This document shows positions 16,950 through 47,153 of a stretch of 50,521 nt of DNA, in pieces; the first letter of the stretch is position 1, and every line of letters begins with the position of its first letter. Source of the DNA: a virus (Duplodnaviria > Caudoviricetes); IMG/VR virus record IMGVR_UViG_3300020042_004377, positions 1 through 50,521 of that record; one strand, 5' to 3'. The notes beneath the pieces are model-generated. The model did no database searches, had not been told where the DNA came from, and was given only the letters and a program-made list of their open reading frames with translations. Made by a program: the position numbers and the translations under genes.

Positions 16950-16961
16950 GCTCTTTAACAA
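16950..16961 (+). promoter_or_regulatory. boxA antitermination element (rrn/nut type)
   Basis: GCTCTTTAACAA matches the proteobacterial rrn boxA core; about 80 nt downstream of the promoter; a short hairpin AGCC-CCTA-GGCT overlaps its 5' end. Confidence 0.7.
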
Positions 16962-16964
16962 CCT

Positions 16965-17700: not shown

Positions 17701-17711
17701 ATTCATACAGT

Positions 17712-17972
17712 ATGAAAGACTCAAATTCAATCCCAAACCTTTACATCGTGGACTACTGGAAGCCGTTCCCATCGTCTGAGTATGGCGGTGTGCAATGTGT
17801 TGTTGCACATAGTGATGCCGAGTGCGAACGCATCCTTGCAGATGACGTAGACGAGTTTCACCGTGGATACCATCCCGACTACCGTGAACGCATCGCCAAC
17901 TGCATCAAGAGAGCCAAGCGTTTCCCTGTGGATGCCGCAGATGTGGGCATCGTGTACGAATTCAGAACTTAA
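17712..17972 (+). CDS. Hypothetical early protein
   Basis: MKDSNSIPNLYIVDYWKPFPSSEYGG; the ATG lies within a palindrome copy. Confidence 0.7.
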   Translation: MKDSNSIPNLYIVDYWKPFPSSEYGGVQCVVAHSDAECERILADDVDEFHRGYHPDYRERIANCIKRAKRFPVDAADVGIVYEFRT

Positions 17973-17984
17973 AGGAGAGAGCAA

Positions 17985-18395
17985 ATGAAATACAACTCAT
18001 TGATGGAAGCACAGATGGGCGAATGGCCTGACAGCTTGGTGCTGACCGACCGACAGATGTGCGAAGCACTCGAGCGGGTTGTGCCCGACTGGATGACCAA
18101 CCACAAGATGAAAGACTGGCCCATGTATGACGCACGCCATGAATTTGGGGAGTGGTATGCGCCCATCTTTTATATGGATTGGAAACATCTACAGATTGAG
18201 CAGACACGCGCAAGGTGGGCGCGTAGTGCGTTCTATTACCGAAGCGGTGACCCTGCTGGGTTCTTCTATGCGTGCGGCAAGCAAGACGATGGGACATACC
18301 GCCATGTGGGGTTCCGCTACGGCACAGAGGACTGCGAGTACGCATCGGGGTTTGATGGCATGACTTACACACCAACCAAAGGAGAGAGCAAATGA
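17985..18395 (+). CDS. Hypothetical early protein
   Basis: 136 aa; RBS module AAAGGAGAGAGCAAATG. Confidence 0.75.
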   Translation: MKYNSLMEAQMGEWPDSLVLTDRQMCEALERVVPDWMTNHKMKDWPMYDARHEFGEWYAPIFYMDWKHLQIEQTRARWARSAFYYRSGDPAGFFYACGKQDDGTYRHVGFRYGTEDCEYASGFDGMTYTPTKGESK

Positions 18396-19667: not shown

Positions 19668-19881
19668 TTGCAGAATTTGTGGGGATGAGATTGACCCGCC
19701 CGAAAGGGCAAAACTCAAGCCGTACTGTCTCATGTGTGGCGAGGACATGGCACGAGCCGAGCGCCGTTCGTGGACTGTGGTGCAGGAATACGGCAAGGGT
19801 GGGTATATGTTTGTGACACAGCAGTCTGCCCACGTCACATTGAAACAAACAAACCAAAAGAACTTGAGGTGCGACATATGA
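19660..19881 (+). CDS. Small zinc-finger protein (CxxC..CxxC, TraR/DksA C4-like spacing)
   Basis: MSDCRICGDEIDPPERAKLKPYCLMCG. Confidence 0.65.
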   Translation: MSDCRICGDEIDPPERAKLKPYCLMCGEDMARAERRSWTVVQEYGKGGYMFVTQQSAHVTLKQTNQKNLRCDI

Positions 19882-20111
19882 AGCTAAGAGACATACGCAA
19901 GCGGGCGCAGACAAAGTACGTGCATGAGTCAGGGTTCCGGTTCATTCGTGACTACACAGGCAAGCGTTGCCGCACTTACGTGATGGGGTGTTCAACGTGC
20001 GATGGGTGGAGGTTCTTTGATGAGCATGGGCGGTTCGTGCACACCGATGTCGAACTGTGGAACTACATGCTGGACCTCAAGATAGAACGTGGACTTGACA
20101 CGTGTGTGTAA
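19878..20111 (+). CDS. Hypothetical Cys-containing protein
   Basis: MKLRDIRKR..GKRC..GCSTCDGW; ATGA coupling. Confidence 0.65.
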   Translation: MKLRDIRKRAQTKYVHESGFRFIRDYTGKRCRTYVMGCSTCDGWRFFDEHGRFVHTDVELWNYMLDLKIERGLDTCV

Positions 20112-20123
20112 AGCTGTTATAAT
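20095..20123 (+). promoter_or_regulatory. Consensus sigma70 promoter
   Basis: TTGACA-17 bp-TATAAT with TGn; shares TGTAAAGCTGTTA with the 16838 promoter; palindrome at 20168 downstream. Confidence 0.9.
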
Positions 20124-20193
20124 GTAGTTTGTTAGGTTGTTATTGTGTGTTAGTTAAACAAACGCGGTTTCATACCGTATGAAAGGAAGCAAG

Positions 20194-21066
20194 ATGAACG
20201 TATCTAAACTCTCTGGGTCTGCATTGATTGTCAACATGTCGTTGTCCGTATGGACAGGGCGCAAGCTGGATAAGCGTGTGTCGGAGGAGGTTGACCAGCA
20301 GAACTCTACCAAGACCCGCGCTGGCAATTACCACAAGAACCTGATGGCAGGTAGTGGCAAGCTGGAGGAAATCACCAAAGTGGCAAACGCCGTGCGTACA
20401 TGGCACTACACCGTGACACAGCCGTGGGGCGACAACGGCGACAGGGTGCTGAACATGGCATCGTTCGTGGACTACAAGTCACGGCTGACCGAGTACGAGC
20501 GTCAGTTTGCAACTGCTGTCAACAACTTTCTCAATGACTACGACACGATGGTCGCCGCAGCGGCGTTCCAGTTGGGCGACTTGTTCAGCAGGGATGACTA
20601 CCCACACCGAGACCAAATCGTTGGCAAGTTTGGGTTCCGGTATGCGTTCTCGCCCCTGCCTATGGCTGGCGACTTCCGTGTGGACATTGGCGAGGAAGGG
20701 TTGCGCGAGATGCAAGACCACTACGAGGGTGTGCTGAGTACCCGACTGGGTGAAGCGATGAAGGACGCTTGGGACAGGCTGTATGACGTGTTGACACGCA
20801 TGAGTGAGCGGTTGACCGATGACGTTGGCCCTGATGGCGAGCCCAAGCGCAAGATATTCCGCGACACATTGGTGGAGAACACATTGGAGGTGTGCAGTTT
20901 GTTACGGCACTTCAATATCACAGGGGATACACGTCTGGAAGCTATGCGTATGCAGTTGGAGGATGCGATGCGCGGCATTGATGCGGCTTCATTACGTGAG
21001 AGCGACATGTTGCGTGAGCAGACCAAGCGCAAGGTGGACGCTATGTTGGATAGGTTTTCTCTTTGA
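20194..21066 (+). CDS. DUF3150-like helical protein
   Basis: SLSVWTGRKLD, FSRDDYP..KFGF..PLP..DFR and LRHFNITGD; typical neighbour of AAA/vWA pairs. Confidence 0.6.
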   Translation: MNVSKLSGSALIVNMSLSVWTGRKLDKRVSEEVDQQNSTKTRAGNYHKNLMAGSGKLEEITKVANAVRTWHYTVTQPWGDNGDRVLNMASFVDYKSRLTEYERQFATAVNNFLNDYDTMVAAAAFQLGDLFSRDDYPHRDQIVGKFGFRYAFSPLPMAGDFRVDIGEEGLREMQDHYEGVLSTRLGEAMKDAWDRLYDVLTRMSERLTDDVGPDGEPKRKIFRDTLVENTLEVCSLLRHFNITGDTRLEAMRMQLEDAMRGIDAASLRESDMLREQTKRKVDAMLDRFSL

Positions 21067-21168
21067 GGAAACAGGTCTCGCGGCTTTCATACCGTATGAA
21101 AGTTGCGTTGTGTAAGTGGATGGGGTACAAACCGTATCCCGAGTTTTTCAAACCGAAAGGAAATCATC

Positions 21169-22248
21169 ATGTCTATGTATAAATCTCTCTCCCTACAACA
21201 AACCGCTGACCTCATCGCGGCGATTGGCGACAAGCAAACCGTGCTGGCATCTGGCGAGATGGGCATTGGCAAATCATCAATCCTCAAGATGTTGAAGGCA
21301 ATGCCTAAATTCAAAGACCACTTGTTCTGCTACGTGGACATTACGACCAAGGACGTTGGCGACTTCATGGTTCCCAAGATTCGCACCATCGATGGCGTTG
21401 AGGTGTGCTCATTCATTCCGAACGAGGAGTTTGGTCTGCACTTCAAAGGCAAGAAGGTTGTGATGATGCTGGACGAGTTGGGCAAGGCCAAAGGCGGCGT
21501 GATGAATGCGTGTCTGCGTCTAATGCAAGAGCGTTCGTTGGGTATGTATGACTTGGACGGCATCGTGTTTGCCACAACGAACTTAGGCATAGAGGGTATC
21601 GGTGACAACGTGCCACCCCATGCACGTAATCGTGTGACTCAGGTTCGTGTTCGTAAGCCCAATGCACAAGAGTTGATGGAGTATGCAATCAACAACAACT
21701 GGAACCCAATCGTTATCGCAACTATCAACGAGTTTCCCGAGATGTTGGCATCCTTTGAGGACTACGAGAAACCCGAGCAGAACATGTACATCAATGACCC
21801 ACGTGATGTACGTATGGCTGTGGTTACCCCACGTTCTTTGGACAAGTCTGGTTACATCATTGACCAGACGATGGCGTTGGGCGATGACATTATGTGTCAT
21901 GCGTTGAAGGGCACTATTGGCGAGAAGGCAATGCACAACATATTGACGATGGTGAAGTTGGATACACAATTAACCAATTGGGATGACCTCATCAAGTCTC
22001 CCACGACTGCGACTGTGCCCACGTCAGCGGCGGCGGCATGTATGTTGGTTGCCAAGGCAGTACAGCGCATTGAGAAGGTGAGCATAGATGCGTGGATGGA
22101 CTTCCTCCCACGTATCAGCAAGGAAGCACAGGGTTTGTTTGCACGTAGCGTTATGAGCGACAAGTGCCCCAAGCGTACTGTGGCGGCGACCAACCCCAAG
22201 TTTGCCAAGTGGGCGGCTGACAACAACTATTTGTTTGCACGTAAGTAA
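21169..22248 (+). CDS. AAA+ ATPase (MoxR/CbbQ-like)
   Basis: Walker A GEMGIGKS, Walker B MMLDE, sensor ATTN, TPRS. Confidence 0.85.
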   Translation: MSMYKSLSLQQTADLIAAIGDKQTVLASGEMGIGKSSILKMLKAMPKFKDHLFCYVDITTKDVGDFMVPKIRTIDGVEVCSFIPNEEFGLHFKGKKVVMMLDELGKAKGGVMNACLRLMQERSLGMYDLDGIVFATTNLGIEGIGDNVPPHARNRVTQVRVRKPNAQELMEYAINNNWNPIVIATINEFPEMLASFEDYEKPEQNMYINDPRDVRMAVVTPRSLDKSGYIIDQTMALGDDIMCHALKGTIGEKAMHNILTMVKLDTQLTNWDDLIKSPTTATVPTSAAAACMLVAKAVQRIEKVSIDAWMDFLPRISKEAQGLFARSVMSDKCPKRTVAATNPKFAKWAADNNYLFARK

Positions 22249-22257
22249 GGAGGATAT

Positions 22258-22386
22258 ATGACAACACCAGCAGAACTGTATGACTTGTTAGACAAGGCAG
22301 GTATTGAGTATGAAATCGTGGAGATATTCGAGGGTGTTCGCATCCTCAGTATCGAAGTAAATGAACCAACCGAAGAAGGAGAGTAA
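22258..22386 (+). CDS. Small acidic protein (42 aa, not in the ORF track)
   Basis: AAGGAGG RBS; MTTPAELYDLLDKAGIEYEIVEIFEGVRILSIEVNEPTEEGE. Confidence 0.65.
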   Translation: MTTPAELYDLLDKAGIEYEIVEIFEGVRILSIEVNEPTEEGE

Positions 22387-22388
22387 TC

Positions 22389-23603
22389 ATGTTTGTAACA
22401 ACAACACAATCGTTGCCTGCGTTGAAGCGCATTGAGCGTGCTCACGTTGAATTGATGGCACACAAAGATACTATGGAGTATGCAGGCATCATCATGGTGG
22501 GCAAGTACACGGTGGTGGACAACATCCCAACCGCATGTACCAACGGCATCGACTGCATGTATGGCAAGAAGTTTGTAGAAGAGTTGTCCGACTCTGACCT
22601 GCGTGGTCTCATCATGCACGAGAACTTGCACAAAACATTCCAGCATACGTTCTTGTGGAAACATCTGTACGAGGAGAACGCACGATGCGCCAACATGGCG
22701 TGTGACTACGTAATCAACATCCTCATCAAAGATATTGACAAGGCATCGAGCGGGTTTGTCACTCTGCCCAAGCAAGGGTTGTATGACGAGCGTTTCCGTG
22801 GCATGGACTCGCAAGAGGTGTTCAACATCTTACTGGATGAGAGCGAGGATGGTGATGGCGGTGATGGCGGTGATGGCGGTGATGGCGGTGATGGCGGTGA
22901 TGGCGGTGATGGTGGTGATGGGTTCGACTCTCACGACTGGGACACATCTGACCTCACACAAGAGGAGATTGAGGAACACATGAAGGAGGTCAATCAAGCC
23001 ATCCGTCAGGGTCAGTTGTTGGCTGGCAAGATGGGTGGCAATGTGTCCCGCGACTTGGGTGCGTTGCTTGATTCAAAGGTTGATTGGCGTGAGCAGTTGC
23101 GTGACTTTGTGAACAGTCTGGCCGATGGCAAGGATGTATCCACATGGCAACGTGTTAATCGGCGTTGGTTACAGCATGACATGTACATGCCCTCCACATT
23201 GTCCGAGAGCATGGGGCGTATCGTGGTTGCCATCGACACATCTGGTTCATGCTTTGATGCGTTAGAGCCGTTCTTATCTGAGATGCAAGCCATATGTGAC
23301 AACGTACAGCCAGAACTTGTGGACTTGTTGTACTGGGATACCGAGGTGGCACGGCATGAGGTGTATGGGCGTGATGACCTGCACAAACTTGTGAAGTCTA
23401 CGAAACCCGCTGGCGGCGGTGGCACTGACCCCGCATGTATCCCCAAGTACATCGAAGCCAAAGGGTTGAAGCCGGATTGTGTCGTAGTGCTCACCGATGG
23501 ATATGTTGGTGGGTGGGGTACATGGCGGCATCCGGTGTTGTGGTGTATCGCTGGTGGGTACAAGCCCCGCCCCTCCACAGGCGTGGCAATCTATATCGAT
23601 TGA
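22389..23603 (+). CDS. DUF2201-type putative metallopeptidase plus vWA domain protein
   Basis: TACTNG, HENLH (HExxH), NMACDYVIN, MIDAS DTSGS, GGGGT and VLTDG. Confidence 0.85.
   Translation: MFVTTTQSLPALKRIERAHVELMAHKDTMEYAGIIMVGKYTVVDNIPTACTNGIDCMYGKKFVEELSDSDLRGLIMHENLHKTFQHTFLWKHLYEENARCANMACDYVINILIKDIDKASSGFVTLPKQGLYDERFRGMDSQEVFNILLDESEDGDGGDGGDGGDGGDGGDGGDGGDGFDSHDWDTSDLTQEEIEEHMKEVNQAIRQGQLLAGKMGGNVSRDLGALLDSKVDWREQLRDFVNSLADGKDVSTWQRVNRRWLQHDMYMPSTLSESMGRIVVAIDTSGSCFDALEPFLSEMQAICDNVQPELVDLLYWDTEVARHEVYGRDDLHKLVKSTKPAGGGGTDPACIPKYIEAKGLKPDCVVVLTDGYVGGWGTWRHPVLWCIAGGYKPRPSTGVAIYID
22851..22922. repeat. 9-bp in-frame tandem repeat (GGTGATGGC)x6 plus 2 variants
   Basis: Encodes a (GDG)n linker. 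Confidence 0.95.
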
Positions 23604-23644
23604 GAAACAGGTCTCGCAGTAACTAACAAACGAAAGGAAAAATC

Positions 23645-24601
23645 ATGGCATCAATAAGAGAATTTTCTAGGAAGTATTGGTACGGCTCTTATATTGGCAT
23701 AGACAACTACGACATAGCAAAGGAGAACTACGAAAAGACGTTACCAATCCAAGGTAAGCGATTGAAGCATGGCATTGATGTGCGTCCCTTGACCGTTCGG
23801 CGGCGTGTGTGGGAAACGTGGCACAAGGATGGGGATGCCTACGGCATGGCGTTCGTTCAATCCTATTGCCAAACCACACGTGACTCAAAAACACAAAAGG
23901 TTATTAAAGAAGAGTACGTACACAACGTGCATCCGTTGCTGATGTTTCAACCCGATGGGGCAATAGAGTTTAATCCTTCATGGATGACCTACTACCCCAC
24001 ATGGGATGTGCTTGGTGCGTTGTTGCCCAAGGGCATAACTTACGTGCGGTACGGTAGCAAGAGTTACTTCAAGCTGGATATGCCAGATGGTATGGAGCCT
24101 ATGCACATGTTTAGCCCAGGTACAAAGATGACTTTCATACCGTATGAACATGAAGGCAAACGTTACTTCCGTGTGGACTGCCCCATATCAGAGACCAAGA
24201 TACTGATAGATAGGGACAAAGCAAAGAAGGTACGCGCAGAACTAAAAGCGTTCTTGGACTACTGCGAGTACATGGTAGACCTAGCACCCGCACCAACCAA
24301 ACACGACTGGAAAGCCGAAGCAAATGCAGAGGGTTGGTTGGAGACTATTGATTGGTTGGTGCGTAACGAAGGCGAGGAAATTGGAAGTAAATGGTTTCCT
24401 GCAATAGAAGCGTTTGTAGTGACATATGCAAGGTATGTGTACGACTACAAAACCCAAACAAGCGCGGCCATTCCCGTAGATGCTGGTGGCTTACGTGACA
24501 GATTGAAGGGTCACAAACTGTATGGGTACACCAGACCATACAGGGTTGAGTACGTGCCAATTGGTAAACCATTCTTTAAAAACGGGAGGACGATGGAATG
24601 A
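23645..24601 (+). CDS. Hypothetical protein
   Basis: 318-aa ORF with GAAAGGAAA RBS; contains the palindrome copy at 24133. Confidence 0.8.
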   Translation: MASIREFSRKYWYGSYIGIDNYDIAKENYEKTLPIQGKRLKHGIDVRPLTVRRRVWETWHKDGDAYGMAFVQSYCQTTRDSKTQKVIKEEYVHNVHPLLMFQPDGAIEFNPSWMTYYPTWDVLGALLPKGITYVRYGSKSYFKLDMPDGMEPMHMFSPGTKMTFIPYEHEGKRYFRVDCPISETKILIDRDKAKKVRAELKAFLDYCEYMVDLAPAPTKHDWKAEANAEGWLETIDWLVRNEGEEIGSKWFPAIEAFVVTYARYVYDYKTQTSAAIPVDAGGLRDRLKGHKLYGYTRPYRVEYVPIGKPFFKNGRTME

Positions 24602-33710: not shown

Positions 33711-33724
33711 TTTTTGATGGAGCA

Positions 33725-33862
33725 CTGCCGAAGTAAGGTGCGAGTGATAGGCAGAGCCGGGGGTTTTTGATATTTTTCCCCTTTCATAAATAACCGCACC
33801 AGTCAGCACGATTGTAAATCCTTTCAAGGTCGGGAACTGACGGACAGCCTGGAGAGACAGGC
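33725..33862 (+). ncRNA. Candidate structured intergenic RNA with pyrimidine-rich loops
   Basis: Stems CTGCC/GGCAG, GGTGCG/CGCACC, GTCAG/CTGAC and GCCTG/CAGGC; loops TTTTTCCCCTTT and AAATCCTTT. Confidence 0.45.
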
Positions 33863-33915
33863 ACAAATCTAACCTTCAAACATAGTGTTTGGAGTGCATA
33901 ACTATCGGAGAGATT

Positions 33916-35497: not shown

Positions 35498-35522
35498 ACC
35501 CACATAAAGAGAGAAGGAGAGA

Positions 35523-35933
35523 GTGATGACGGAAGAAATTCCAGTTGACAAACTTGTCGCCGTATACATCAAGATGCGGGACAAACGTGCTGAACTTCTG
35601 CGCGAGTACGAAGATCAGGACGAAGCTGTCAAACAGCAAATGGAAGTCGTGGAGGGTAGATTACTCGACCTCTGCAAAACCATTGGCGTTGACAGCCTCA
35701 AGACCAAACACGGTACTGTTATGCGTGGTGTCAAAACCCGCTACTGGACAAGTGATTGGCAATCCATGCACAACTTCATTATGGAAAACAAGATGCCTGA
35801 TCTTTTAGAAAAGCGCATCAGTCAGTCCACGATGAGACAACTGCTGGATGAGAACCCCGACATGATGCCCCCCGGTGTCAATGTCGATAGCAAATATTCC
35901 GTAACCATAAGGAGAAGCGCAAATGGTAGCTGA
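35523..35933 (+). CDS. Conserved replication-module hypothetical protein
   Basis: Coiled coil, then SLKTKHGT..DW..LLEKRISQ..PPGV. Confidence 0.75.
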   Translation: MMTEEIPVDKLVAVYIKMRDKRAELLREYEDQDEAVKQQMEVVEGRLLDLCKTIGVDSLKTKHGTVMRGVKTRYWTSDWQSMHNFIMENKMPDLLEKRISQSTMRQLLDENPDMMPPGVNVDSKYSVTIRRSANGS

Positions 35934-37987: not shown

Positions 37988-40861
37988 ATGACCTCACGGA
38001 TTCCCTTTCTCTCCTCCGTGCTTGCAAGTGAAGGCTTGTACTGCGTGGTAGGGTTGAAGAAAGGTGCGCCACGGCAAACATTTGTAGAGACAACAGAAGA
38101 AATCGACGGTGTAGTAGAAGGGTTGATGGCACAGGGGTACGATGCGTACTTCGGATGTGCCAAGTATCTGAACGCCTCAGAAGGGCGTATAGCGCAGAAC
38201 GCAAAATGGTTCAAAGCCTTTTGGCTTGATCTGGACTGCGGCGAGAACAAACCCTACGAAACGCAAGCCGATGCTCTTGATGCCTTGAAACAGTTTGTCA
38301 AAGACACCGGACTTCCAAGACCCACATTAGTGAACTCAGGCCGTGGTATCCACGTGTACTGGACACTTACACAACCAATCTTTTACAACGATTGGAAGCC
38401 AACCGCTGAAGCGTTTAAGAAATTTTGCGCGGCGTATAACTTGTACGCTGACCCAGCGGTAACTGCGGATGCCGCACGGATTCTGCGTATCCCAGAGACA
38501 CTCAACTACAAGGACAGCCCACCCAAAAAAGTGGACATGATGGTCGTGTCACAACCCATTGAGTTTGGCAGGTTCCAAGCCATAGTGGGGGTAGGCCCAG
38601 AAGAAGATGATCTGGAACTGCCATTTGCCGCGCCAGCACTACGCCGCCCAATAGATGCAACTACCCGCGCCTTGATGGGTAACAGCATTTCCAGATTCAG
38701 CACAATCATGCGGCGTAGTGCTCAAGGTAAAGGGTGTGGACAACTTGTACACATTTATCGCAACCAGCAAGAAATTGAAGAGCCATTGTGGAGAGCAGGG
38801 CTGTCAATTGCCGCGAACTGCGAGGACGGTGAACTTGCCGTTCACAAAATCTCCCATGCCCATGAGGAATACGACCCCAAGGACACCAAGCTAAAGGCAG
38901 ATGCGCTGGTAGGCAAACCTTACAAGTGCGCGACATTTGGCGGTATCAACCCAAAAGGTTGTGTTGATTGCCCCAACAAAGGCAAGATCACGTCCCCTAT
39001 CCAGATTGGCGCTCAGATCGCGGAGGCCAAGGCAGAGGACAATATCGTGGTGATGCGTAACGCCACACTGGAGGAAGATATTACGGTAGAGATACCAGAG
39101 TATCCGTTTCCATATTTTCGCGGCAAAAACGGTGGGATATACAGGCGCGGTATGCCATCGGAAAAGGCAAAGAAAAAAGACGATGAAGACGATGACAGCG
39201 AACGCGATGTGCTTATTTATGAGTACGACTTTTATGTGGTCAAGAGGCTGACCGACCCAGATGCTGGCGAGTCTTTATGGATGCGTCTTCACATGCCCAA
39301 GGACGGTATACGGGAGTTTTCATGCCCCCTATCAAGTGTGCTGTCCAAGGACAAATTTAGAGAAGTCATTGCCTTTCAAGGCGTGACTGCGTACAACAAA
39401 AAACTGGATAATCTTATGGCATATGTAACACGTTGGGTAGGTGAACTACAGCAGTTGTCGGAGGCAGAAAAGGCACGACAACAATTTGGTTGGTGTGAAG
39501 ATGACACCAAGTTTGTCGTTGGCAATCGTGAGATTACGGCGGCGGGTGTGAACTACAGCCCATCATCTGCGGCAACCGCAGAACTGGCAACCCTCTACAC
39601 CAAGAAGGGCACTATCCATGAATGGGCCAAGGTTGCCAACAACTATGCACGTTCGGGGAATGAAGTCCGCGCATTCACGTTGTTTGCAGGGTTTGGCTCG
39701 GCGTTGTTTAAATTCACCAAACTCAGCGGGTCGATCATTCACCTGACAAACAACGGCTCGGGTGTAGGCAAGTCCACCATTCAGTACATGGTCAACAGCA
39801 TTTGGGGTCGCCCACTGGAGACCTTGATGAATCAGGAGGACAAGTACCTTGCCCGTATGCACCGCATATCGGTACTGGGGAACATACCCCCAACGATTGA
39901 CGAGTTGACCAACATGGGTGACGAAGAAGTCAGCAACATGGCGTATGCGACTACGCACGGCAGGGGGCGCAACAGGATGCAGTCCCAGACCAATGCGGAA
40001 CGAAGCAACCTACTGCGCTGGTCTTCCATTGCGATCACATCAGGCAACAAGAGTTTGTACGACCAGTTATTCAACCTCAAAGATTTCCCAGAAGGCGAGT
40101 TGATGCGGATACTGGAATTCAGCGTTGCCAAGATGGACAACATGTCCAAGGCTGAGTCGGACGAGGCGTTCAACGGCATCTACGATAACTACGGCGTGGC
40201 GGGTGAAGTGTTCATGCGGTACGTGATTGCCAACTTGCCAGAAGTCAAGAAGATGCTGGGCAAAATCCAGCGTAAGTTTGACAAGGCGGCGGGGATGACA
40301 CAGCGTGAGCGATTCTGGTCTGCAACAGCGGCATGTGCCATAACCGCTGGAGTCATCTCAAAGAAGTTGGGCCTCCATAACATTGATGTGGCAGCGGTGT
40401 ATGAGTGGGCTGTGGCAACAATTGGCAGGATGCGTGTCGAAGTGCGACCGGGCGTAGCTGGCCCATTGGCACACCTTGGGTTGTTCTTGAATGAGCACAA
40501 TAACAATATGCTCATCGTCAACAGCACCGTGGACAAACGCTCTGGCTTGATGGAGGTTCCAGTACGAGAACCCAGAGGGGAACTTATAACGCGCTTTGAG
40601 CCCGACACAAAGCAGTTGTTCATCACGATCAAGATACTGCGAGAGTGGTGTTCGGAGAATCAAATTTCCTACAAGGGGTTGGTCGAAGACCTGCACCGGA
40701 TGGGCGCTTGCCTTGGAACCTTGAAGAAAGCCATGTCGCGGGGGTCGGATATGTCCACACCAGCGGTGAGTGCATTGGTGGTTGATTGCACAAAAGCAAC
40801 AGCTTTAGACCCCGAAGACACTACACCCCTTCCTTCACCAAGTGATGACGATTTACAATAG
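37988..40861 (+). CDS. Primase-helicase (AEP/RepB-like primase, Cys cluster, DUF927 and SF3-type helicase)
   Basis: WLDLDCG, VNSGRGIHVYW, RILRIPET, Cys cluster, Walker A GSGVGKST, IDELTN. Confidence 0.85.
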   Translation: MTSRIPFLSSVLASEGLYCVVGLKKGAPRQTFVETTEEIDGVVEGLMAQGYDAYFGCAKYLNASEGRIAQNAKWFKAFWLDLDCGENKPYETQADALDALKQFVKDTGLPRPTLVNSGRGIHVYWTLTQPIFYNDWKPTAEAFKKFCAAYNLYADPAVTADAARILRIPETLNYKDSPPKKVDMMVVSQPIEFGRFQAIVGVGPEEDDLELPFAAPALRRPIDATTRALMGNSISRFSTIMRRSAQGKGCGQLVHIYRNQQEIEEPLWRAGLSIAANCEDGELAVHKISHAHEEYDPKDTKLKADALVGKPYKCATFGGINPKGCVDCPNKGKITSPIQIGAQIAEAKAEDNIVVMRNATLEEDITVEIPEYPFPYFRGKNGGIYRRGMPSEKAKKKDDEDDDSERDVLIYEYDFYVVKRLTDPDAGESLWMRLHMPKDGIREFSCPLSSVLSKDKFREVIAFQGVTAYNKKLDNLMAYVTRWVGELQQLSEAEKARQQFGWCEDDTKFVVGNREITAAGVNYSPSSAATAELATLYTKKGTIHEWAKVANNYARSGNEVRAFTLFAGFGSALFKFTKLSGSIIHLTNNGSGVGKSTIQYMVNSIWGRPLETLMNQEDKYLARMHRISVLGNIPPTIDELTNMGDEEVSNMAYATTHGRGRNRMQSQTNAERSNLLRWSSIAITSGNKSLYDQLFNLKDFPEGELMRILEFSVAKMDNMSKAESDEAFNGIYDNYGVAGEVFMRYVIANLPEVKKMLGKIQRKFDKAAGMTQRERFWSATAACAITAGVISKKLGLHNIDVAAVYEWAVATIGRMRVEVRPGVAGPLAHLGLFLNEHNNNMLIVNSTVDKRSGLMEVPVREPRGELITRFEPDTKQLFITIKILREWCSENQISYKGLVEDLHRMGACLGTLKKAMSRGSDMSTPAVSALVVDCTKATALDPEDTTPLPSPSDDDLQ

Positions 40862-41048
40862 TGGTGTTCCAATCGTAATTGAATGGCACAAGTTTGTGAT
40901 CGGAAGCTCTTTTTACATTCCAACGTTAACGCCTGACACGTTAACAGAGGAAATTAAGAGAGCGGCACAGAAACGAGGGATGCGAGTCAAGTCTCGTTTT
41001 TGTTTAGAGTACGGTACACAAGGGGTGAGGTTCTGGCGAGTAAATTGA
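40842..41048 (+). CDS. Small hypothetical DNA-binding-like protein
   Basis: W..F.IGSSFYIP..GVRFWRV. Confidence 0.7.
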   Translation: MMTIYNSGVPIVIEWHKFVIGSSFYIPTLTPDTLTEEIKRAAQKRGMRVKSRFCLEYGTQGVRFWRVN

Positions 41049-41067
41049 TCTTGTGCTAGAGTTCGCC

Positions 41068-41145
41068 TAGCAATTGATCTCCTCTCTCCTTTCGGTTGCT
41101 ATCTCCCGATCATTTCCCCCGGCCTAAAAAACCGGGGGTTTTTTT
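41068..41145 (+). ncRNA. Candidate anti-Shine-Dalgarno small RNA (about 78 nt)
   Basis: TGn-TAGAGT at 41054-62; 10-bp stem 41068-77/41092-101 with 14-nt loop TCTCCTCTCTCCTT; ends in a terminator. Confidence 0.55.
41116..41145 (+). terminator. Intrinsic terminator at the convergence of the two arms
   Basis: CCCCCGG-loop-CCGGGGG followed by T7. Confidence 0.85.
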
Positions 41146-44100
41146 CAGTCTTCCAATTCTTCAATTGAACGCTCAATCAAGGGTCGCAGTTTCTTGTTTA
41201 CTTGCACCCCGTGGTACATCTCATTTGAGATACGGTCACGAGCCTTCACCGACTTGGTGATTGTGTTCTCAGATATCTTCAACTCAGGGTATTTGTCCCC
41301 CAACTCAAACAACTTGTCCCTGAGTTCATCAGCACGCTCATAGTCCCCCTCACGCTGGGCAACGTAGTATTTCTTGAGCAGTGACTTCTCTTGCTTGGTG
41401 ATAACGTCACCCATCTTCTTGGCATACGCATTGATCTCGTACTGGGCCAACAAGTCAGCAGGTGCAAAGCCCAACACCTGCATTGCGGCGTTGTAACCAT
41501 TAACCTGCCCAACCTCGTCACCGCGTAAAGTGCGTGCATCCTCCAACATATACCGACCGCCCTTGAGGACGTTGCGTAGAGCAATAGGCAACATGGCCTC
41601 CACTCCACGCTCAAACTGACCATCAGCGATAAGTTCTTTGCCTCGGTAGACGCTGTTTACAACAGCCCAAGGTGCGCCCAAAAGGTTCTCTAGTATCTGG
41701 CTCAATGCGCTGGCATCTGCCTTGTCGCCCTTGTTCTCGCGGTAAATCAAATCAGTCCAGCCCACACGATCGGCAACGCCAAGATTTGTGAAATAGTTTA
41801 GTGGGCCTTTGAACGCAAGTTCCCCAAGATACTTACGCATGACAGTATCAAAGTCATCTTCGTCGTCATCGTTGAGTGCGTTGTACGCCATCTCTGCAAC
41901 CCAGTACAAGGGCAGACCTTTTGCTCCAGCAAAGAGTGCCGACATGCCGTAGACACCTGCAAGTTGGCGGCGAGCCACTTTGGCTTCCGCGATCTGGTCT
42001 GCGTCTGCATTGGGAGGTAATCCCAACAGCTTGCTACGGCGCATGGTGTCAAACAGCATGTAGTACATGGTGAAGGCAAACCGCTTGAACACGGTAAGAA
42101 TTTTGCCCAGGTCGCTTTGACCGATGCTGGGGCCAGATTCAGTATGACCTGCACCGTGGGCAAACTCCACCAGACGGACAGCCTTCTCAATGGCTTTGGT
42201 TTGAGCTTCTTCGCCCTTGATACCCTTTTTAGCCAGCCGTGCCATCTCCAAATCGTATGCCGCTATCGCCGTCACTTCACGGTTAAAACGCTCGGCTTGG
42301 TGGAACATGGCTGTGGACACACGGGCAGTCTTCTGGGCGATGCCCTGCAAACTCTCAGGGTTAAGCGCCTCATGCGCCATAGACTCCACTAGCAGACCCA
42401 GTTCATCCAAACGGGTGAACAGACCTTTGTATTGTTTGTGCTGACCCTGCCCAATTAAGTTTTCCACAGACAAGCCAACACGCACAGGGCCAGTCTGGGT
42501 GATCTCTACACCGTTGATATCCACAATCTTGCGGGTGAAACCGCTACTTTTGAAGATGTTGGCGGCTTTAAGTAAGGCGCGACCTGAGTCAATGAACCCG
42601 TATTCCCCGCCCAACTGAGGTAACACCACCATAGGAGTTTGCAGGGTGTTGACCACAGCCGACGAGACGTTACCCGCCAAGTTGAAATAGAACGAACCAG
42701 TGCTGGCGTATCGTGCGATATCGGAAAACTGCGGGTTTATAGCAAACTTAAACCGGGCTTCCATTTCCTGCACCAATTCTTTTGCCCGGACGCTTTCGTC
42801 CCCGCGCTTTAGGTTGGCTTGCTTACGCATGGAGTCCAGCAACTGCTGAAGTTCTTCGCTGTACCGCATACGCGACAACTGCCGTGCTGTACGATCAGTT
42901 ACACGGGAGAACGCTTTAGATACATCTTGTTCATAGCCAGGGGTTCCCTTACGAGTTTGGAACGACTTGAGCAGGCTGGTCTCAGGCAACGCACTTACGA
43001 TTAACTGCAAGAACTTGTCCACCGCCGCATCATCAGCCCCACCATCCCGCATGATTTTGACGATCTGAGCCGCCACCGTTCCACGTGGAACCGTTTTGGA
43101 GGTCATGTTCTCGGTGCGGGAGTATTCTTCAATCCCCGTATGCCCATCAGCAACGACCTGGGTTTGCGCGAGGCGGCGCTCGGCTTGGGTGTTGAACAGG
43201 CGCTGCACTGTCTGTTTAGTGTTCTTGTCCGTGTACTGCAACCAGTATTCACCCTCACGATACAGCGGTGAGTAATGATCGATGCCCATCTTGGTGATTT
43301 GGTCAATGATCTTGTTGTACGCAGACAGAGCTTTTTCTTTGTCCTTGTTGCCGTTCTCATCAACAAAGGTCTCATCCAAATTCTTGCGGATGGATTCTTT
43401 TATTTCCGTGAACAGAACTTTGAATGAGGCAAAGTGATCTTTATACAACTGCTGTTCAGTCGGTGTCAGCTTGGCATAACGTGCCCGTAAGTCTTTGTAG
43501 GCTTTGAGGTTTTCTGCACTGCCAGCGTATTTTTTGCTGGCTTCCCCTGGTTCCAAAGATGGGTTCACGTCTGCCAAAGTGGAGTCGTTGACCAAATCAG
43601 CCCAGTTGCCATACCTGTCAGAACGGGAGAACTCTTGCAGACGCTCTTTCAACGGTTGCAGTTTCTTGGACAGGTTGCCGTAATACGCCGCCATCTCGTT
43701 TACGGTATCGGCAAACTTAATGGAATCTTGACCTACGATCTTGGCCCCAATTTGACCCAGTGCTGACAGGTTCAAAAACCTTTGAGCGAATGTACGCAAA
43801 GACAATCCGGATTTCTCAATTGCGCCCAGCACTTGAGCGGCGGTCTCAGGGGTGACCAGCTTTTGCTTGTGGATGATATTGTCCGTGGCATTGAAAACGC
43901 GCTGAGTCAGGTTTGGATGTTTTATCGACTGTGCGTACAATGTATCACCATCGCGCTGACCGGGGGGCACGCTCACAATTTCGTTGAGTAACGTGTCCAC
44001 CATATCCAAGGCATTGCCCTGCTTGGGCGGGAACCCAAACATCCTACGTACAACTTGTACTATCTTGTCCCAGAGTGAAGTGTTTGGCACATCGGCGTAC

Positions 44101-47100
44101 TTCTCTTTCAACTGGGTACGGAACGCATCATTACTCCACACTTCTGCTACAAACTCTTGCAGGCTCTTTGCGCCATACGCCCCATCGACATCGGCTTGAA
44201 GTTGCTTGAATATCTGCTCCAACTGCTTGGTCACGGGGTGGGACGGATTGGCAATCATATGGGACAGCCCAGCGTGAGCCGCTTCGTGCAAGAACTCGTA
44301 GTCGGTGGCGTCTTTCCGCAAGTAGATTGTGTTGGTCTTGGGGTCGTACATCGACTCAGGCGCACCGTACACCAGCTTCACATCACCCAGCAGCCGGGAC
44401 AATACATCGGCAATCTGTGCAACACGCTCGGACGAGGCGGTGCCACCAAAGGCACGCATAGCTCCGACGAAATTGCCACGCTCCAACATTCCAATCACAG
44501 CCGGGTGGGCTGTGGTGTACAACTGAGCAACTTCTGGTGACGCAAGCAACGTATTCAGATCGTTGTCAGCGATGTAGTCCATATCTGCATCAGCACCCTC
44601 GTACTGCTCCAAGGCGGCGCGTGCATACTCCCGCGCTTTCTTGCGGTTCTTGTTGGGTTTGATGCCAAATTCTTTTACATCCTCTGCCATGTCTTTCAGA
44701 GCAGCCTTCTCGGACGCTTCGGCCTTGATGCCTTCTTCTTTGATTTGGACTTTGGTAGCCTTTTTTACTTTGGTTTGGCGATCTTGACGTTCTTTTGAAA
44801 CCCGAGCCCTGAGTTCTTCTTTTTCGTATTGAGCAATATTTTTGTCTAAAAACGCCACGCTCTCAGGAGACAGATTGGCGCGTGCCCATTCAGCAGCATT
44901 TTTGGCGTGCTTGCCCCCCTGCCCTTGAAACATGGAGGCTTCGCCTTCCCAAGCAAAGAATGGTTCCGGTCCCGTGGGAAAACCTTCGGGGGCTTTGTAG
45001 TCCCCCTCAAACGCTTTCATTTTGGAGTTACGGTACGCCGTAGGTTGCCGCACTAAATCATCAGCAATCCATTTCAGCGCATCACGAACAGGTATCCTTC
45101 CAAAATAGGCAGTGGCGTCCTTCTCTTGCGAAGACATTTCTCCACGCTTGCGCTTGCCCAGCTTGGTGTTAACAGCCGCCTCATCAGGCGTGAACTTGGC
45201 CTTCTCTATATCCTCAAGAGACGCACCAAGAGTCGGTTCTTCCACCTTTTTGGTAGTGGGAGCCGCAGTAGTTTTGCCAGTAGCTGCCTTTCGTCCCTTA
45301 GAAGGTACGGTAGGGGGTACAGAAGCAACATCAGCAATAGTAGAAGTATCTTCAATTGGGGCTCCCGTTACTGGAGGGGCTGAAGGTTCTTCTCCAACAG
45401 CAGGCTGTGCAACATCCTGTCCAGTAGGAACCACTCCATCTCGTTGAGGTGGTTCAAGTCCCTCGGTGGGGGCTCCTGTAACGGGCTGTGTAGCCACGCC
45501 AACGCCTGCTCCACTTGCTGTGGTGTCAACTCCTGCAACATTAGGCACTCCTTTTAGTTCGGCGCGGATAGCCTCCACCTGCTGGGGGTCAAAGGTAGAG
45601 ATAAGATCGTTGTACGCCGTTTCGTTAATCCTGCCTTTGAAACTGGGGTTCTCTACCGTCTGAATCAACTGACGTTGACCCTCGGGTGTGGAAATATCTA
45701 TGTTATTTAAAAACTGCCCTACCTTGGAACGCTTAACTATGCCAAGCTGTTCTGCAACGTTTGAAACAACAGGAGGGGCAGGAGGTTGTGCCCCCGGTAA
45801 AAACAAACCTTCTTCATTAGGTGTAGCAGTAGTGAATCCACTCAATGCGCTTTTCTCTGCATCAAGTTTCAACTGCTGTTCTTTTAATTTAGCGATTTCA
45901 GCATCAAGTTCCGCATATGCTTTAGAACCGGGACGAGCGGCATCCATCCGTGCTTGCAGAATTGCCAATTCATCGGGCATGTATTTAAACGCAGCCTCAA
46001 GATCAGCCTGTCGTTTAGCCCGTGATGCAGCAAGTTGATCTTCGTACTCGGCGGCTTTTTCTGGGGTCAGTGAACCAGCCGCACGCTCTTGGTCGTACTG
46101 TGCTTGCAATGCAACTTCAGCTTCTTTTGTGTTGCTGTAATCCGTGTATGCAGTACGGTAATTTGATATGCCTGTGGGTACGCCAAACATCCCACCGCCC
46201 ACGGCTCCTTTAACAAACGCTTCCTTGTACCGTTGGACGTTCTCTGGAGACAGCAATTCTTTTGCGCTTCCAGCAACTTGCTCTGCATACGCTCCAATAA
46301 ACTCTTGTGTGCCTTCGGTCAAACCCTCTACAGCCGCCGCTTTGGGCACTTCTTTGAGCAGGTTCTTCCACACGCTGGGTTTTGCACCCGAATTCTTTGC
46401 CATCTCTGCAATGATCTTGGCCTTGCCGTAACCACCCAAAGTGCTCAATGTTTGGGCAGGGAGCACTGAGTCCAACACAGCACTCAACCCACCGTATAAA
46501 GCAGAAATGCTGGGCTCCAACTGACCCGTTTCACGATAGATGTTTTCAAAAATTTCAGGAGCGGTTTGGGCGTATGAACCCAAGAACACACCAGCCTGCA
46601 TACCTCGTTTAGCGCCTTGTGCAGCGGCAGCTTTTACGATGGGAGCGGCAAGAGCCTCACGTCCAGCAACACCAGCAGTAGCGGCTCTCAATGCAGCGCC
46701 ACCCACCACCCGCGACCCAACAGCGCCCAAACCCACGCCAGGAATAATTGCCGTTGCCGCAGTGGGCACAAGTTCGCCGCCCGTCTCAGCCACAAACTCC
46801 AAGGCGTCCCCCGGACCTTTAACCTCTTTGTACGAACGAAACCGTGTGGGGTATTTCTCTTCCAGTTGTTCACGACTGGTTTGCGCCTCTGCCAACTGAC
46901 GTTCTGCGTATTCATTTGCGCCTACCGCAGTGCCAATCATGGCGGGCAACGTGTCTCCAGCCGCAATACCCAATTCACCCAGCCCCCGCATTGCCCCGCG
47001 CTTAAAGATTGTGCCAAGGCTGGCCTCTGGTTTTGGCGCAGGAAAATCATATTTTTCCGCCAGTCGATACACCAACGAATTGAATTGCGCGGGTGACAAA

Positions 47101-47153
47101 TCGTCGGGAAAACTAACGTCCCCTACTTTTGGAAAATTGATAATCATGGTCAA
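41145..47153 (-). CDS. Large polyvalent virion/ejection protein with a zincin-like metallopeptidase and a PLxRFG-like region
   Basis: 2002 aa; Gly/Ala-rich hydrophobic N-part; YDPKTNTIYL..FLHEAAH..EFVAE; YSPLYREGEY; helical C-terminus; last gene of the late arm. Confidence 0.7.
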   Translation of the reverse strand: MTMIINFPKVGDVSFPDDLSPAQFNSLVYRLAEKYDFPAPKPEASLGTIFKRGAMRGLGELGIAAGDTLPAMIGTAVGANEYAERQLAEAQTSREQLEEKYPTRFRSYKEVKGPGDALEFVAETGGELVPTAATAIIPGVGLGAVGSRVVGGAALRAATAGVAGREALAAPIVKAAAAQGAKRGMQAGVFLGSYAQTAPEIFENIYRETGQLEPSISALYGGLSAVLDSVLPAQTLSTLGGYGKAKIIAEMAKNSGAKPSVWKNLLKEVPKAAAVEGLTEGTQEFIGAYAEQVAGSAKELLSPENVQRYKEAFVKGAVGGGMFGVPTGISNYRTAYTDYSNTKEAEVALQAQYDQERAAGSLTPEKAAEYEDQLAASRAKRQADLEAAFKYMPDELAILQARMDAARPGSKAYAELDAEIAKLKEQQLKLDAEKSALSGFTTATPNEEGLFLPGAQPPAPPVVSNVAEQLGIVKRSKVGQFLNNIDISTPEGQRQLIQTVENPSFKGRINETAYNDLISTFDPQQVEAIRAELKGVPNVAGVDTTASGAGVGVATQPVTGAPTEGLEPPQRDGVVPTGQDVAQPAVGEEPSAPPVTGAPIEDTSTIADVASVPPTVPSKGRKAATGKTTAAPTTKKVEEPTLGASLEDIEKAKFTPDEAAVNTKLGKRKRGEMSSQEKDATAYFGRIPVRDALKWIADDLVRQPTAYRNSKMKAFEGDYKAPEGFPTGPEPFFAWEGEASMFQGQGGKHAKNAAEWARANLSPESVAFLDKNIAQYEKEELRARVSKERQDRQTKVKKATKVQIKEEGIKAEASEKAALKDMAEDVKEFGIKPNKNRKKAREYARAALEQYEGADADMDYIADNDLNTLLASPEVAQLYTTAHPAVIGMLERGNFVGAMRAFGGTASSERVAQIADVLSRLLGDVKLVYGAPESMYDPKTNTIYLRKDATDYEFLHEAAHAGLSHMIANPSHPVTKQLEQIFKQLQADVDGAYGAKSLQEFVAEVWSNDAFRTQLKEKYADVPNTSLWDKIVQVVRRMFGFPPKQGNALDMVDTLLNEIVSVPPGQRDGDTLYAQSIKHPNLTQRVFNATDNIIHKQKLVTPETAAQVLGAIEKSGLSLRTFAQRFLNLSALGQIGAKIVGQDSIKFADTVNEMAAYYGNLSKKLQPLKERLQEFSRSDRYGNWADLVNDSTLADVNPSLEPGEASKKYAGSAENLKAYKDLRARYAKLTPTEQQLYKDHFASFKVLFTEIKESIRKNLDETFVDENGNKDKEKALSAYNKIIDQITKMGIDHYSPLYREGEYWLQYTDKNTKQTVQRLFNTQAERRLAQTQVVADGHTGIEEYSRTENMTSKTVPRGTVAAQIVKIMRDGGADDAAVDKFLQLIVSALPETSLLKSFQTRKGTPGYEQDVSKAFSRVTDRTARQLSRMRYSEELQQLLDSMRKQANLKRGDESVRAKELVQEMEARFKFAINPQFSDIARYASTGSFYFNLAGNVSSAVVNTLQTPMVVLPQLGGEYGFIDSGRALLKAANIFKSSGFTRKIVDINGVEITQTGPVRVGLSVENLIGQGQHKQYKGLFTRLDELGLLVESMAHEALNPESLQGIAQKTARVSTAMFHQAERFNREVTAIAAYDLEMARLAKKGIKGEEAQTKAIEKAVRLVEFAHGAGHTESGPSIGQSDLGKILTVFKRFAFTMYYMLFDTMRRSKLLGLPPNADADQIAEAKVARRQLAGVYGMSALFAGAKGLPLYWVAEMAYNALNDDDEDDFDTVMRKYLGELAFKGPLNYFTNLGVADRVGWTDLIYRENKGDKADASALSQILENLLGAPWAVVNSVYRGKELIADGQFERGVEAMLPIALRNVLKGGRYMLEDARTLRGDEVGQVNGYNAAMQVLGFAPADLLAQYEINAYAKKMGDVITKQEKSLLKKYYVAQREGDYERADELRDKLFELGDKYPELKISENTITKSVKARDRISNEMYHGVQVNKKLRPLIERSIEELED

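What the first reader, a model, noticed from the sequence alone, without database searches (positions are those of the whole stretch)
41054..41145. Candidate anti-Shine-Dalgarno sRNA complementary to the phage's own early RBS module
Seen: in the 96-bp gap where the arms converge there is an extended -10-like TGcTAGAGT, a 10-bp stem starting at the expected +1, a 14-nt all-pyrimidine loop TCTCCTCTCTCCTT, and an intrinsic terminator. CTCTCTCCTTT is the exact complement of AAAGGAGAGAG at 17971 and 18378 (11 nt). CTCTCTCCTT matches AAGGAGAGAG at 35514. TCCTTTCGGTT matches AACCGAAAGGA at 21151, the AAA ATPase RBS (11 nt). Inference: a trans-acting sRNA that shuts off translation of many early/middle genes, or host mRNAs, through a standardised RBS. 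With the palindrome array and the 33.7-kb RNA, this would form a layered DNA+RNA switch. Caveat: any anti-SD sequence matches SD sites to some extent.
Basis: partly seen in the sequence, partly recalled or inferred. Interest (0 to 1): 0.8.

Follow-up and report, generated by a model that had tools for sequence, protein, structure and literature searches.

The report
Phage RNA mirroring replication-gene ribosome site
Where the two gene arms of an uncultured phage meet lies a conserved, predicted 77-base RNA gene whose exposed stretch is complementary to the ribosome-binding site of one of the phage's own replication-region genes and changes in step with that site across dozens of related phages, so it likely switches that gene, and more weakly other early genes, off by base pairing.

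Summary
The gap holds an extended -10 motif, a hairpin starting 7 nt downstream, a CU-rich loop, a second UCUCC stretch and a + strand terminator. The same element follows the same small ORF in 42 of 43 related viral loci (one is cut off). Distant relatives (primase about 43% identical) keep the layout with different letters.

The RNA co-varies with the ribosome-binding site (RBS) of one gene, a 135-aa DUF7307/Gam-like gene at 35526. Own pairs beat swapped pairs in 22 of 25 tree-independent pairs, and the signal is confined to windows overlapping that RBS. Other early-arm RBSs co-vary weakly in aggregate (15 of 18 genome pairs); late-arm RBSs do not (4 of 11). Among six other single genes only the SSB-like one reached p<0.05; helicase failed.

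No transcript is shown, the host is unknown, and a wobble test could not separate RNA pairing from DNA-level similarity. The element resembles Betaproteobacterial double-hairpin sRNAs (RF02278) but scores below the cut-off. I found no support for a layered switch with the palindrome array. The scan noted similar elements before on other phage DNA.

The parts
41052..41062 (+). Predicted extended -10 promoter element (TGTG-C-TAGAGT)
   Evidence: 57 distinct close variants: T-15, G-14, T-12, A-11, A-9, T-7 invariant; positions -13 and -10 vary; 4-fold codon sites of the upstream ORF are near saturation (mean majority 0.52, 0 of 13 at 0.98 or more)
41034..41039 (+). Weak -35-like hexamer TGGCGA inside the Trp-Arg codons of the small ORF (17-nt spacer)
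   Evidence: conservation here is confounded by coding
41069..41145 (+). Predicted 77-nt small RNA
   Evidence: Hairpin start lies 7 nt (41), 8 nt (15) or 6 nt (1) after the -10 in 57 of 57 variants; lengths 64-81 nt; transcription not shown
41069..41100 (+). 5' hairpin (9 bp, two G-U pairs)
   Evidence: stem letters differ completely between distant groups while pairing is kept; + strand fold more stable in 29, - strand in 9, of 40
41078..41091 (+). 14-nt pyrimidine loop, first anti-SD stretch
   Evidence: CTCC or TCTCTC in the loop of 57 of 57 close variants
41101..41115 (+). Single-stranded linker with a second anti-SD stretch (TCTCC)
   Evidence: CTCC/TTCC in 49 of 57 close variants; the main pairing region in many distant relatives
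41116..41145 (+). Intrinsic terminator, one-directional for the + strand
   Evidence: 5 of 7 pairs show two-sided changes; mean 6.45 T in the 8 nt after the stem against 1.35 A in the 8 nt before it, n=40
35500..35534 (+). Main predicted target: translation-initiation region of the DUF7307/Gam-like gene (AAGGAGAGAG at 35514, ATG at 35526)
   Evidence: Top-4 predicted target in 17 of 22 genomes; co-variation in 22 of 25 independent pairs, confined to windows overlapping the RBS
35526..35933 (+). 135-aa gene between helicase and HTH gene; function unproven
   Evidence: Weak Pfam hits below cut-off: Mu Gam E 0.0045, DUF7307 E 0.009; Atlas neighbours carry DUF7307 in 12-14% of members; model has a long N-terminal helix, pLDDT 81; no PDB match at E<=0.001
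18373..18388 (+). Secondary predicted target RBS (64-aa early gene at 18392), 16 bp with loop and 3' stem strand
   Evidence: not tested for co-variation as a single gene
17971..17981 (+). Secondary predicted target RBS (136-aa early gene at 17985), 11-nt match
21151..21161 (+). 11-nt match upstream of the ATPase gene (ATG 21169); pairs partly with the closed stem strand
   Evidence: not among the 16 best targets once stem opening is charged
22367..22383 (+). Secondary predicted target RBS (VWA/metallopeptidase gene at 22389)
40845..41048 (+). 67-aa ORF of unknown function, last gene of the early/replication arm; fixed upstream neighbour of the RNA
41145..47153 (-). 2002-aa DarB-like virion protein, last gene of the late arm; its stop codon abuts the RNA's U-tail

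Best explanation
The gap likely encodes a trans-acting small RNA of about 77 nt, predicted to be made from its own extended -10 promoter, whose CU-rich single strands are complementary to the ribosome-binding site of the phage's DUF7307/Gam-like gene and would block that gene's translation by pairing with it. Shown: the anatomy, its conservation, and co-variation of RNA and target site. Inferred: transcription by host sigma-70 polymerase; seed pairing of loop or linker on the SD, then extension into the spacer, the start codon or the 3' stem strand; repression rather than activation; weaker repression of other early-arm genes whose RBSs share GGAG-purine; relative escape of late genes; possible Hfq use through the U-tail. 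The most likely role is to cap or time the dose of a replication-module protein, and to damp early translation, as infection proceeds.
For: Conservation: 42 of 43 loci; 57 distinct close variants with a sigma-70-like pattern of fixed and free promoter positions; the same layout in distant groups with different stem letters. Strand: terminator tail and G-U pairs favour +. Target: cognate RNA-RBS duplexes beat swapped ones, permutation p 0.0002 (the floor of 5000) for 56, 40 and 33 dereplicated pairs, and p 0.0002-0.004 within each of three groups. Tree-independent pairs: 22 for, 2 against, of 25; 21 and 3 with accessibility. In the two distant groups, which were not used to pick the target, 12 of 13. 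The signal is absent in 11 of 11 windows that do not overlap the RBS. The family ranks first of 51 for cognate advantage. Two still more distant loci found afterwards fit: own RNA ranks 1 of 68 (L541) and 2 of 68 (L542, beaten only by its relative L541). Arm preference: early over late in 18 of 18 genomes; window 12 of 42 early against 0 of 20 late at -12 kcal/mol or better; early arm without the main target 15 of 18 genome pairs, late arm 4 of 11.
Against: No transcript or pairing is shown. Internal mismatches in cognate duplexes are 15 wobble, 15 A-C and 16 transversions in 40 pairs, so there is no significant wobble excess to prove RNA-level pairing. Single-gene tree-aware tests fail for helicase (9 to 8), primase (11 to 9), small ORF, exonuclease and the 105-aa gene; HTH is p 0.09 and SSB-like p 0.048 uncorrected. 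The main target ranks poorly in 5 of 22 genomes, including all three of the L003 clade. L420, L408, L465 and L493 pair weakly. Two distant relatives (L539, L540) have no gap and no RNA. The promoter matches only 7 of 12 consensus letters. The GGAG-purine bias of early RBSs (82% against 38%) is partly arm composition (70% against 47% over all GGAG in the window's arms). Early and late are assigned by gene arm, not by expression. Genes came from my own simple caller, with some wrong starts.
Confidence: 0.7

Rival explanations
1. The RNA mainly represses host mRNAs, like the Betaproteobacterial double-hairpin sRNAs. Phage RBSs would match only because they copy the host's RBS style.
For: Same parts as RF02278 (two CU-rich anti-RBS stretches, one hairpin, terminator); 27 bits against the family; PMC5688073 reports that overexpressing one member slows growth. 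About 9% of genes called in sampled Burkholderiaceae stretches bind at -12 kcal/mol or better.
Against: Late-arm RBSs, which face the same ribosomes, show no cognate advantage. Co-variation extends into spacer, start codon and second codon of one phage gene, and holds between neighbouring phages on the tree. The host is unknown.
Confidence: 0.12
2. The match is a shared protein-binding motif or a DNA-level copy, not RNA pairing. The - strand late read-through RNA would carry RBS-like GGA repeats as a decoy for a translational repressor, or the motif would be homogenised by recombination.
For: No wobble excess in cognate duplexes. The terminator has no U-tail on the - strand, so late transcripts could run through the gap. 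The - strand of the gap folds as well as the + strand overall.
Against: Promoter, hairpin start at +7/+8, U-tail and G-U pairs all point to a + strand RNA. The matched letters differ widely between clades, which fits pairing better than a fixed protein motif. No conserved - strand ORF starts in the gap: start codon, length and frame vary across 66 loci.
Confidence: 0.09
3. The element is only the 3' end of the primase operon: a terminator plus stabilising hairpin, with no separate RNA and no trans action.
For: It lies directly after the last early ORF. Two RNA-run contigs run from the small ORF into the element, though contigs cannot show transcripts. TGCTAG and CTAGCA around the -10 can form an alternative hairpin in a read-through RNA.
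Against: It does not explain co-variation with an RBS 5.5 kb away. Variation at -13 and -10 breaks the alternative hairpin in several variants but fits a promoter. A 3'-UTR-derived sRNA released by processing would still be the best explanation.
Confidence: 0.05
4. The RNA pairs with the same sites but protects or activates the mRNA, or titrates an incoming related phage's mRNAs (superinfection exclusion), instead of timing the phage's own genes.
For: Pairing data give no sign of effect. Clade-specific RNA-RBS codes resemble the variable specificity loops of P1/P7 c4 RNA (PMC5320573). Lambda PreS both activates and represses.
Against: The duplex covers the SD and often the start codon, which in NmsR-type RNAs represses translation (PMC5362039).
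Confidence: 0.04

Closest known systems
Betaproteobacteria toxic sRNA / Burkholderia double-hairpin RNAs (Rfam RF02278; PMC5688073, passages and section 6 read)
   Same: About 60-90 nt, two CU-rich stretches complementary to RBSs, one in a hairpin loop, and a GC-rich terminator with U-tail
   Different: Order differs: members retrieved here start with single-stranded UGUCUCC and then the hairpin; the phage RNA starts with the hairpin and has the second stretch in the linker. Stem letters are unrelated. Score is 27 bits against a cut-off of 50; best relative 40.4; 0 of 24 over cut-off. Phage-encoded, and seed letters change with a phage gene.
Neisseria NmsRA/NmsRB sibling sRNAs (PMC5362039, passages read)
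   Same: Two UC-rich anti-SD regions, one in a loop and one in a linker, acting on SD regions of several mRNAs
   Different: Chromosomal metabolic regulators with invariant anti-SD regions; no Rfam match here
c4 antisense RNA of phages P1/P7 (as described in PMC5320573, passages read)
   Same: Phage-encoded, about 77 nt, acts in trans on phage mRNA near an RBS, with variable specificity sequences
   Different: c4 is a three-stem RNase P-processed RNA of a temperate immunity operon. This element is hairpin plus terminator with its own predicted promoter, 5.5 kb from its main target; no C4 match.
T4 RegB endoribonuclease (PMC9409239, passages read); functional analogue only
   Same: Selective inactivation of early mRNAs through their GGAG SD sequences at the early-to-later transition
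   Different: RegB is a protein nuclease; here recognition would be by RNA pairing
Phage or satellite trans-acting sRNAs PreS, VpdS, SviR (10.1101/2024.10.31.621285 passages; PMC12197685 parts 1-2 of 6; 10.1101/2022.04.08.487710 abstract)
   Same: Virus-borne trans-acting sRNAs that affect phage and host mRNAs
   Different: In what I read, none is described as an anti-SD RNA co-evolving with the phage's own replication-gene RBS

Membership tests
RF02278 Betaproteobacteria toxic sRNA | Covariance-model score at or above 50 bits | tested here: not met
   27 bits in the window; 0 of 24 relatives over cut-off, best 40.4
RF02278 Betaproteobacteria toxic sRNA | 5' single-stranded UGUCUCC followed by a hairpin with CU-rich loop | tested here: not met
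   Hairpin starts at +1/+2 in 65 of 66 phage RNAs; host members
RF02278 Betaproteobacteria toxic sRNA | Two unpaired CU-rich anti-RBS stretches plus intrinsic terminator | tested here: met
   Loop 57 of 57, linker 49 of 57; terminator co-variation
RF02278 Betaproteobacteria toxic sRNA | Homology detectable in the reverse direction | tested here: inconclusive
   Model R1 scores two of three over-cut-off host members 17-20 bits, E 0.09-0.43; 0 of 101 genomes of G052's family match, but with no positive control and 48 candidates scored per listed genome
RF02278 Betaproteobacteria toxic sRNA | Growth inhibition on overexpression | not testable with these tools
   bench test
C4 antisense RNA (P1/P7) | Three-stem C4 fold, Rfam match | tested here: not met
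   No match at gathering or at E<=10; two-hairpin fold
C4 antisense RNA (P1/P7) | Trans pairing with phage mRNA over an RBS, with co-varying specificity sequence | tested here: met
   By comparative prediction only
Trans-encoded base-pairing sRNA (general class) | Own promoter, unpaired seed, intrinsic terminator with U-tail | tested here: met
   By sequence and conservation
Trans-encoded base-pairing sRNA (general class) | Expressed as a discrete RNA | tested here: inconclusive
   Only assembled contigs were available
Trans-encoded base-pairing sRNA (general class) | Regulates targets by pairing; Hfq or ProQ dependence | not testable with these tools
   needs reporter and compensatory mutants

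The most novel reading that the evidence does not exclude
A large uncultured phage group runs its early-to-late transition with an RNA instead of a nuclease. A clade-specific anti-SD sRNA and the RBS style of the whole early arm co-evolve as a private code, late genes escape through a pyrimidine after GGAG, and the code could also silence the host or closely related co-infecting phages. This would be an RNA counterpart of T4 RegB.
Probability: 0.3. Interest if true: 0.85.

Novelty: new variant of a known kind. Interest (0 to 1): 0.66.

Why it matters
Trans-acting sRNA-target pairs rarely leave a phylogenetic co-variation record; here one is readable across 69 natural RNA-RBS pairs, including changes in the SD core, spacer and start-codon context. 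That gives ready-made compensatory mutants for a one-week reporter test. If true, a widespread uncultured phage group regulates its own replication module with an anti-SD RNA, a strategy I found described only for bacterial chromosomes and, in a different form, for temperate-phage immunity. It also points at a conserved protein of unknown function (DUF7307/Gam-like) whose dose apparently must be limited. The natural cognate and non-cognate pairs are a possible source of orthogonal translation repressors.

Tried and rejected
1. Rfam at gathering threshold: 0 matches in the window.
2. Idea that the conserved GTTGC-linker pairs with a universal AGCAAATG spacer: the motif is in 6 of 27 relatives only. 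Rejected as general, though spacer pairing holds in some distant clades.
3. Helicase as a second co-varying target: ranks second across genomes but 9 to 8 in tree-independent pairs. Not claimed.
4. Wobble-excess test: null.
5. Antisense small ORF on the - strand: not conserved.
6. Expression: 7 runs labelled or guessed as RNA were laid, all contigs; no start, end, strand or level can be read. Small-share runs are not used as habitat evidence.
7. Cultured model: the arm junctions of Pag-Yong1, RHph_TM3_14A and Xp15 were read and showed no comparable hairpin with anti-SD motif; Rollin's convergent genes overlap. HTVC023P was fetched (first 50 kb) but not examined for the element.
8. Host: five bin contigs with the target gene carry four different lineage labels and are probably binned phage DNA, so they give no host.
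9. RNAalifold on the MAFFT alignment chose an alternative hairpin across the promoter; considered under rivals.
10. Target protein fold: no PDB match at E<=0.001; the viral-library and wide structural searches gave no result, so its function stays open.
11. Kimelman 2012, the original toxic-sRNA paper, was not seen; it is known here only through PMC5688073.

Full report
1. Observation. The 96-bp gap 41049-41144 separates a 67-aa + strand ORF, the last gene after the 965-aa primase/helicase, from a 2002-aa DarB-like - strand ORF. One more 11-nt match, at 16637 on the - strand, is not at a start codon. In the window, 7 of 42 early-arm RBS windows match for 9 nt or more; 0 of 300 shuffles that keep the CTCCTT core reach that number.

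2. Setting. The window is one phage record, 50.2% GC, estimated 80% complete. Genes from about 15.3 to 41 kb run on + (ATPase, polymerase, exonuclease, helicase, primase); terminase, portal, capsid and virion proteins run on -. I call these the early and late arms by gene content only. The capsid protein is 70% identical to that of MinM2/Pag-Yong1/Pra-JY27 and 64.5% to HTVC023P. The primase has no cultured relative above 31%. The host is unknown.

3. Conservation. Of 43 viral loci found with the small ORF, 42 carry the element directly after it; the other is cut by its contig end. With more viral and metagenome loci there are 59 distinct variants; 2 were too short and dropped, leaving 57. In these, six promoter positions are invariant and positions -13 and -10 vary, as in sigma-70 extended -10 promoters (family knowledge). 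Four-fold codon sites of the adjacent ORF are near saturation. The hairpin start lies 7, 8 or 6 nt after the hexamer in 41, 15 and 1 variants. On a 34-sequence alignment 93% of cells pair (0 of 500 shuffles); 5 of 7 terminator pairs but only 1 of 7 first-stem pairs change on both sides. The stronger evidence for the first stem comes from distant relatives. Searching with a neighbouring gene reached two further groups, with primase about 43% identical. Across 150 loci there are 69 distinct RNA-RBS pairs (33, 20 and 16 per group). In 66 a TAnnnT hexamer was found, and the fold from the called +1 opens with a hairpin in 65, with entirely different stem letters. The other 3 have GATAAT or GATACT and were left out of the tests. 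My rule chose a purine at +7, +8 or +6, so the purine count there is partly by construction. L493 was probably mis-delimited but kept. The + strand is favoured: the first hairpin is more stable on + in 29 and on - in 9 of 40, and the U-tail is on + only. Two more distant relatives (L539, L540) have no gap and no RNA.

4. Targets. I fetched 21 of 27 and 17 of 24 related records in pieces, called genes with a simple SD-weighted caller (2058 genes in 39 genomes with the window; some starts wrong) and computed duplex energies. In the first 22 genomes, each RNA binds early-arm RBSs better than late-arm ones in 18 of 18 genomes having both arms (p<0.05 in 16). A generic 16S tail motif, recalled from memory, does so at p<0.05 in 3 of 18. 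One family stood out: the 135-aa gene between helicase and HTH gene (window 35526), a top-4 target in 17 of 22 genomes. Its RBS tracks the RNA by eye. In L412 the RNA's UUUGCUUCUCCU faces AGGAGAAGUAAA; in L417 UUUACAACCUCCUUU faces AAAGGAGUUGUAAA; in L460 the pairing covers the start and second codons; in L423 GGAG has become GGAA and the RNA has UUCC. Formally, cognate beats swapped with permutation p 0.0002 for 56, 40 and 33 dereplicated pairs, and p 0.0002-0.004 within each group. On a FastTree of the target and small-ORF proteins, disjoint pairs gave 22 for and 2 against of 25. The two distant groups, not used to choose the target, gave 12 of 13. Sliding the window along the same mRNA, only the three windows that overlap the RBS show the effect; 11 others do not. 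L541 and L542, found later, rank their own RNA 1 and 2 of 68.

5. How broad. Across 51 families the top ten by cognate advantage are all early-arm. In genome pairs the early arm without the main target gives 15 of 18 (p 0.002) and the late arm 4 of 11. Some distant phages repeat one RBS module on several early genes (output partly cut). Single-gene tests are weak: helicase 9 to 8, HTH 10 to 4, SSB-like 13 to 5 (p 0.048, uncorrected); primase, small ORF, exonuclease and the 105-aa gene are null. Early RBSs have a purine after GGAG in 300 of 364 cases and late RBSs in 69 of 181. With one vote per family it is 152 of 189 against 34 of 77. But all GGAG in the window's arms show 70% against 47%, so composition explains part of it. 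The main target ranks low in 5 of 22 genomes, including the three of the L003 clade, where both the long CU loop and the GA-rich leader are gone.

6. Results against. Mismatches in cognate duplexes show no significant wobble excess (15 wobble, 15 A-C, 16 transversions in 40 pairs), so the data do not by themselves separate RNA pairing from a DNA-level or protein-read motif. No expression evidence was obtainable. The promoter is far from consensus, so timing is unknown and a phage activator may be needed. The target protein's function is open: only sub-threshold Mu Gam and DUF7307 hits, a PHROG label of 'minor head protein' that does not fit its place in the replication module, and no solved-structure match.

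7. Mechanism. Most likely (0.7) a hairpin-linker-terminator sRNA seeds on the SD with its unpaired CU stretch, extends into neighbouring mRNA bases, and blocks ribosome loading on the DUF7307/Gam-like gene, with weaker action on other early genes. Anatomy and co-variation are shown; transcription, pairing, sign and timing are inferred. Host mRNAs are probably exposed too: about 9% of 184 genes called in 200 kb of one Burkholderiaceae bin bind at -12 kcal/mol or better, against 12 of 42 early and 0 of 20 late genes in the window. That bin is only a stand-in for the host.

8. Known kinds. It works like NmsR and the Burkholderia double-hairpin RNAs (two anti-SD stretches; PMC5362039 passages, PMC5688073 passages and section 6) and, as a phage trans-antisense RNA, like c4 (PMC5320573 passages). 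It is not a member of RF02278 (27 bits against 50; different order of parts) or of C4. Functionally it parallels T4 RegB (PMC9409239 passages). Nine full-text searches and parts 1-2 of 6 of a 2025 review (PMC12197685) showed no description of this element. The library lacks most subscription journals, and I did not read supplements; motif-discovery supplements and that review's table of 38 uncharacterised sRNAs could hold it. The scan's own notes describe like elements in other genomes. They are unchecked AI notes, seen after my co-variation tests; they gave me the c4 and cuckoo leads and are not counted as support.

9. The palindrome family has 13 copies between 8673 and 24152 and none near this promoter. 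The 33.7-kb element is conserved upstream of the helicase in many relatives, but nothing ties it to this RNA.

10. Verdict. A real, conserved RNA-gene-like element with unusually clear co-evolution to one phage RBS. New variant of a known kind; interest 0.66.

Noticed in passing
window 33711-33915 and upstream of the helicase in L007, L012, L014, L019, L021, L024, L026, L028, L033, L043, L412, L374, L453, L456, L460: A structured leader is conserved across all three groups, with matching segments such as GGTGYGAGT and AACCGCACC and several hairpins; replaced by other sequence in L003, L402, L417. No Rfam match at gathering threshold.
   Followed up: partly
window 8673-24152: 13 copies of the palindrome TTTCATACNGTATGAAA, mostly in the early region, two directly before an SD (18719, 20165); likely operator array.
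   Followed up: no
G020, G024, G025 (L003 clade), leader of the Gam-like gene: The leader has lost the GA-rich stretch and gained a CU-rich stretch that could pair with its own SD in cis, while the sRNA loop has also shortened; possibly a switch from trans to cis control.
   Followed up: no
window 41054-41072: TGCTAG...CTAGCA is an inverted repeat spanning the -10 and +1. It could be an operator or an alternative hairpin in read-through RNA; broken in some variants.
   Followed up: partly
L539:8120 and L540:11215: Distant relatives in which the small ORF abuts the convergent late gene with no gap and no sRNA; natural controls lacking the element.
   Followed up: partly
L465 (G040): This variant has no CUCC/UUCC anti-SD, and its linker forms a small hairpin; it pairs poorly with its Gam-like RBS and may be a decayed or retargeted copy.
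   Followed up: no
G029:C1:17544-17602 (L402-type): This variant scores 40.4 bits against RF02278, the closest any phage copy comes to the host family.
   Followed up: no
window 16437-16785: A 52-nt inverted repeat (83%) around an AT-rich stretch with a TA run, in the non-coding region between the arms; possible origin or packaging region.
   Followed up: no
window 16838-16866 and 20095-20123: Near-consensus sigma-70 promoters with a TG extension on the early arm (TTGACA-17-TACAAT and TTGACA-17-TATAAT), much stronger than the sRNA's predicted promoter.
   Followed up: no
window 22850-22920: A 9-nt tandem repeat (GATGGCGGT) encoding a Gly-Asp-Gly tract inside the VWA/metallopeptidase gene.
   Followed up: no
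OL906435.1, OQ594354.1, PP438419.1: Three records named for different cyanobacterial hosts have the same length (65,014) and the same capsid score; their host labels may be unreliable.
   Followed up: no
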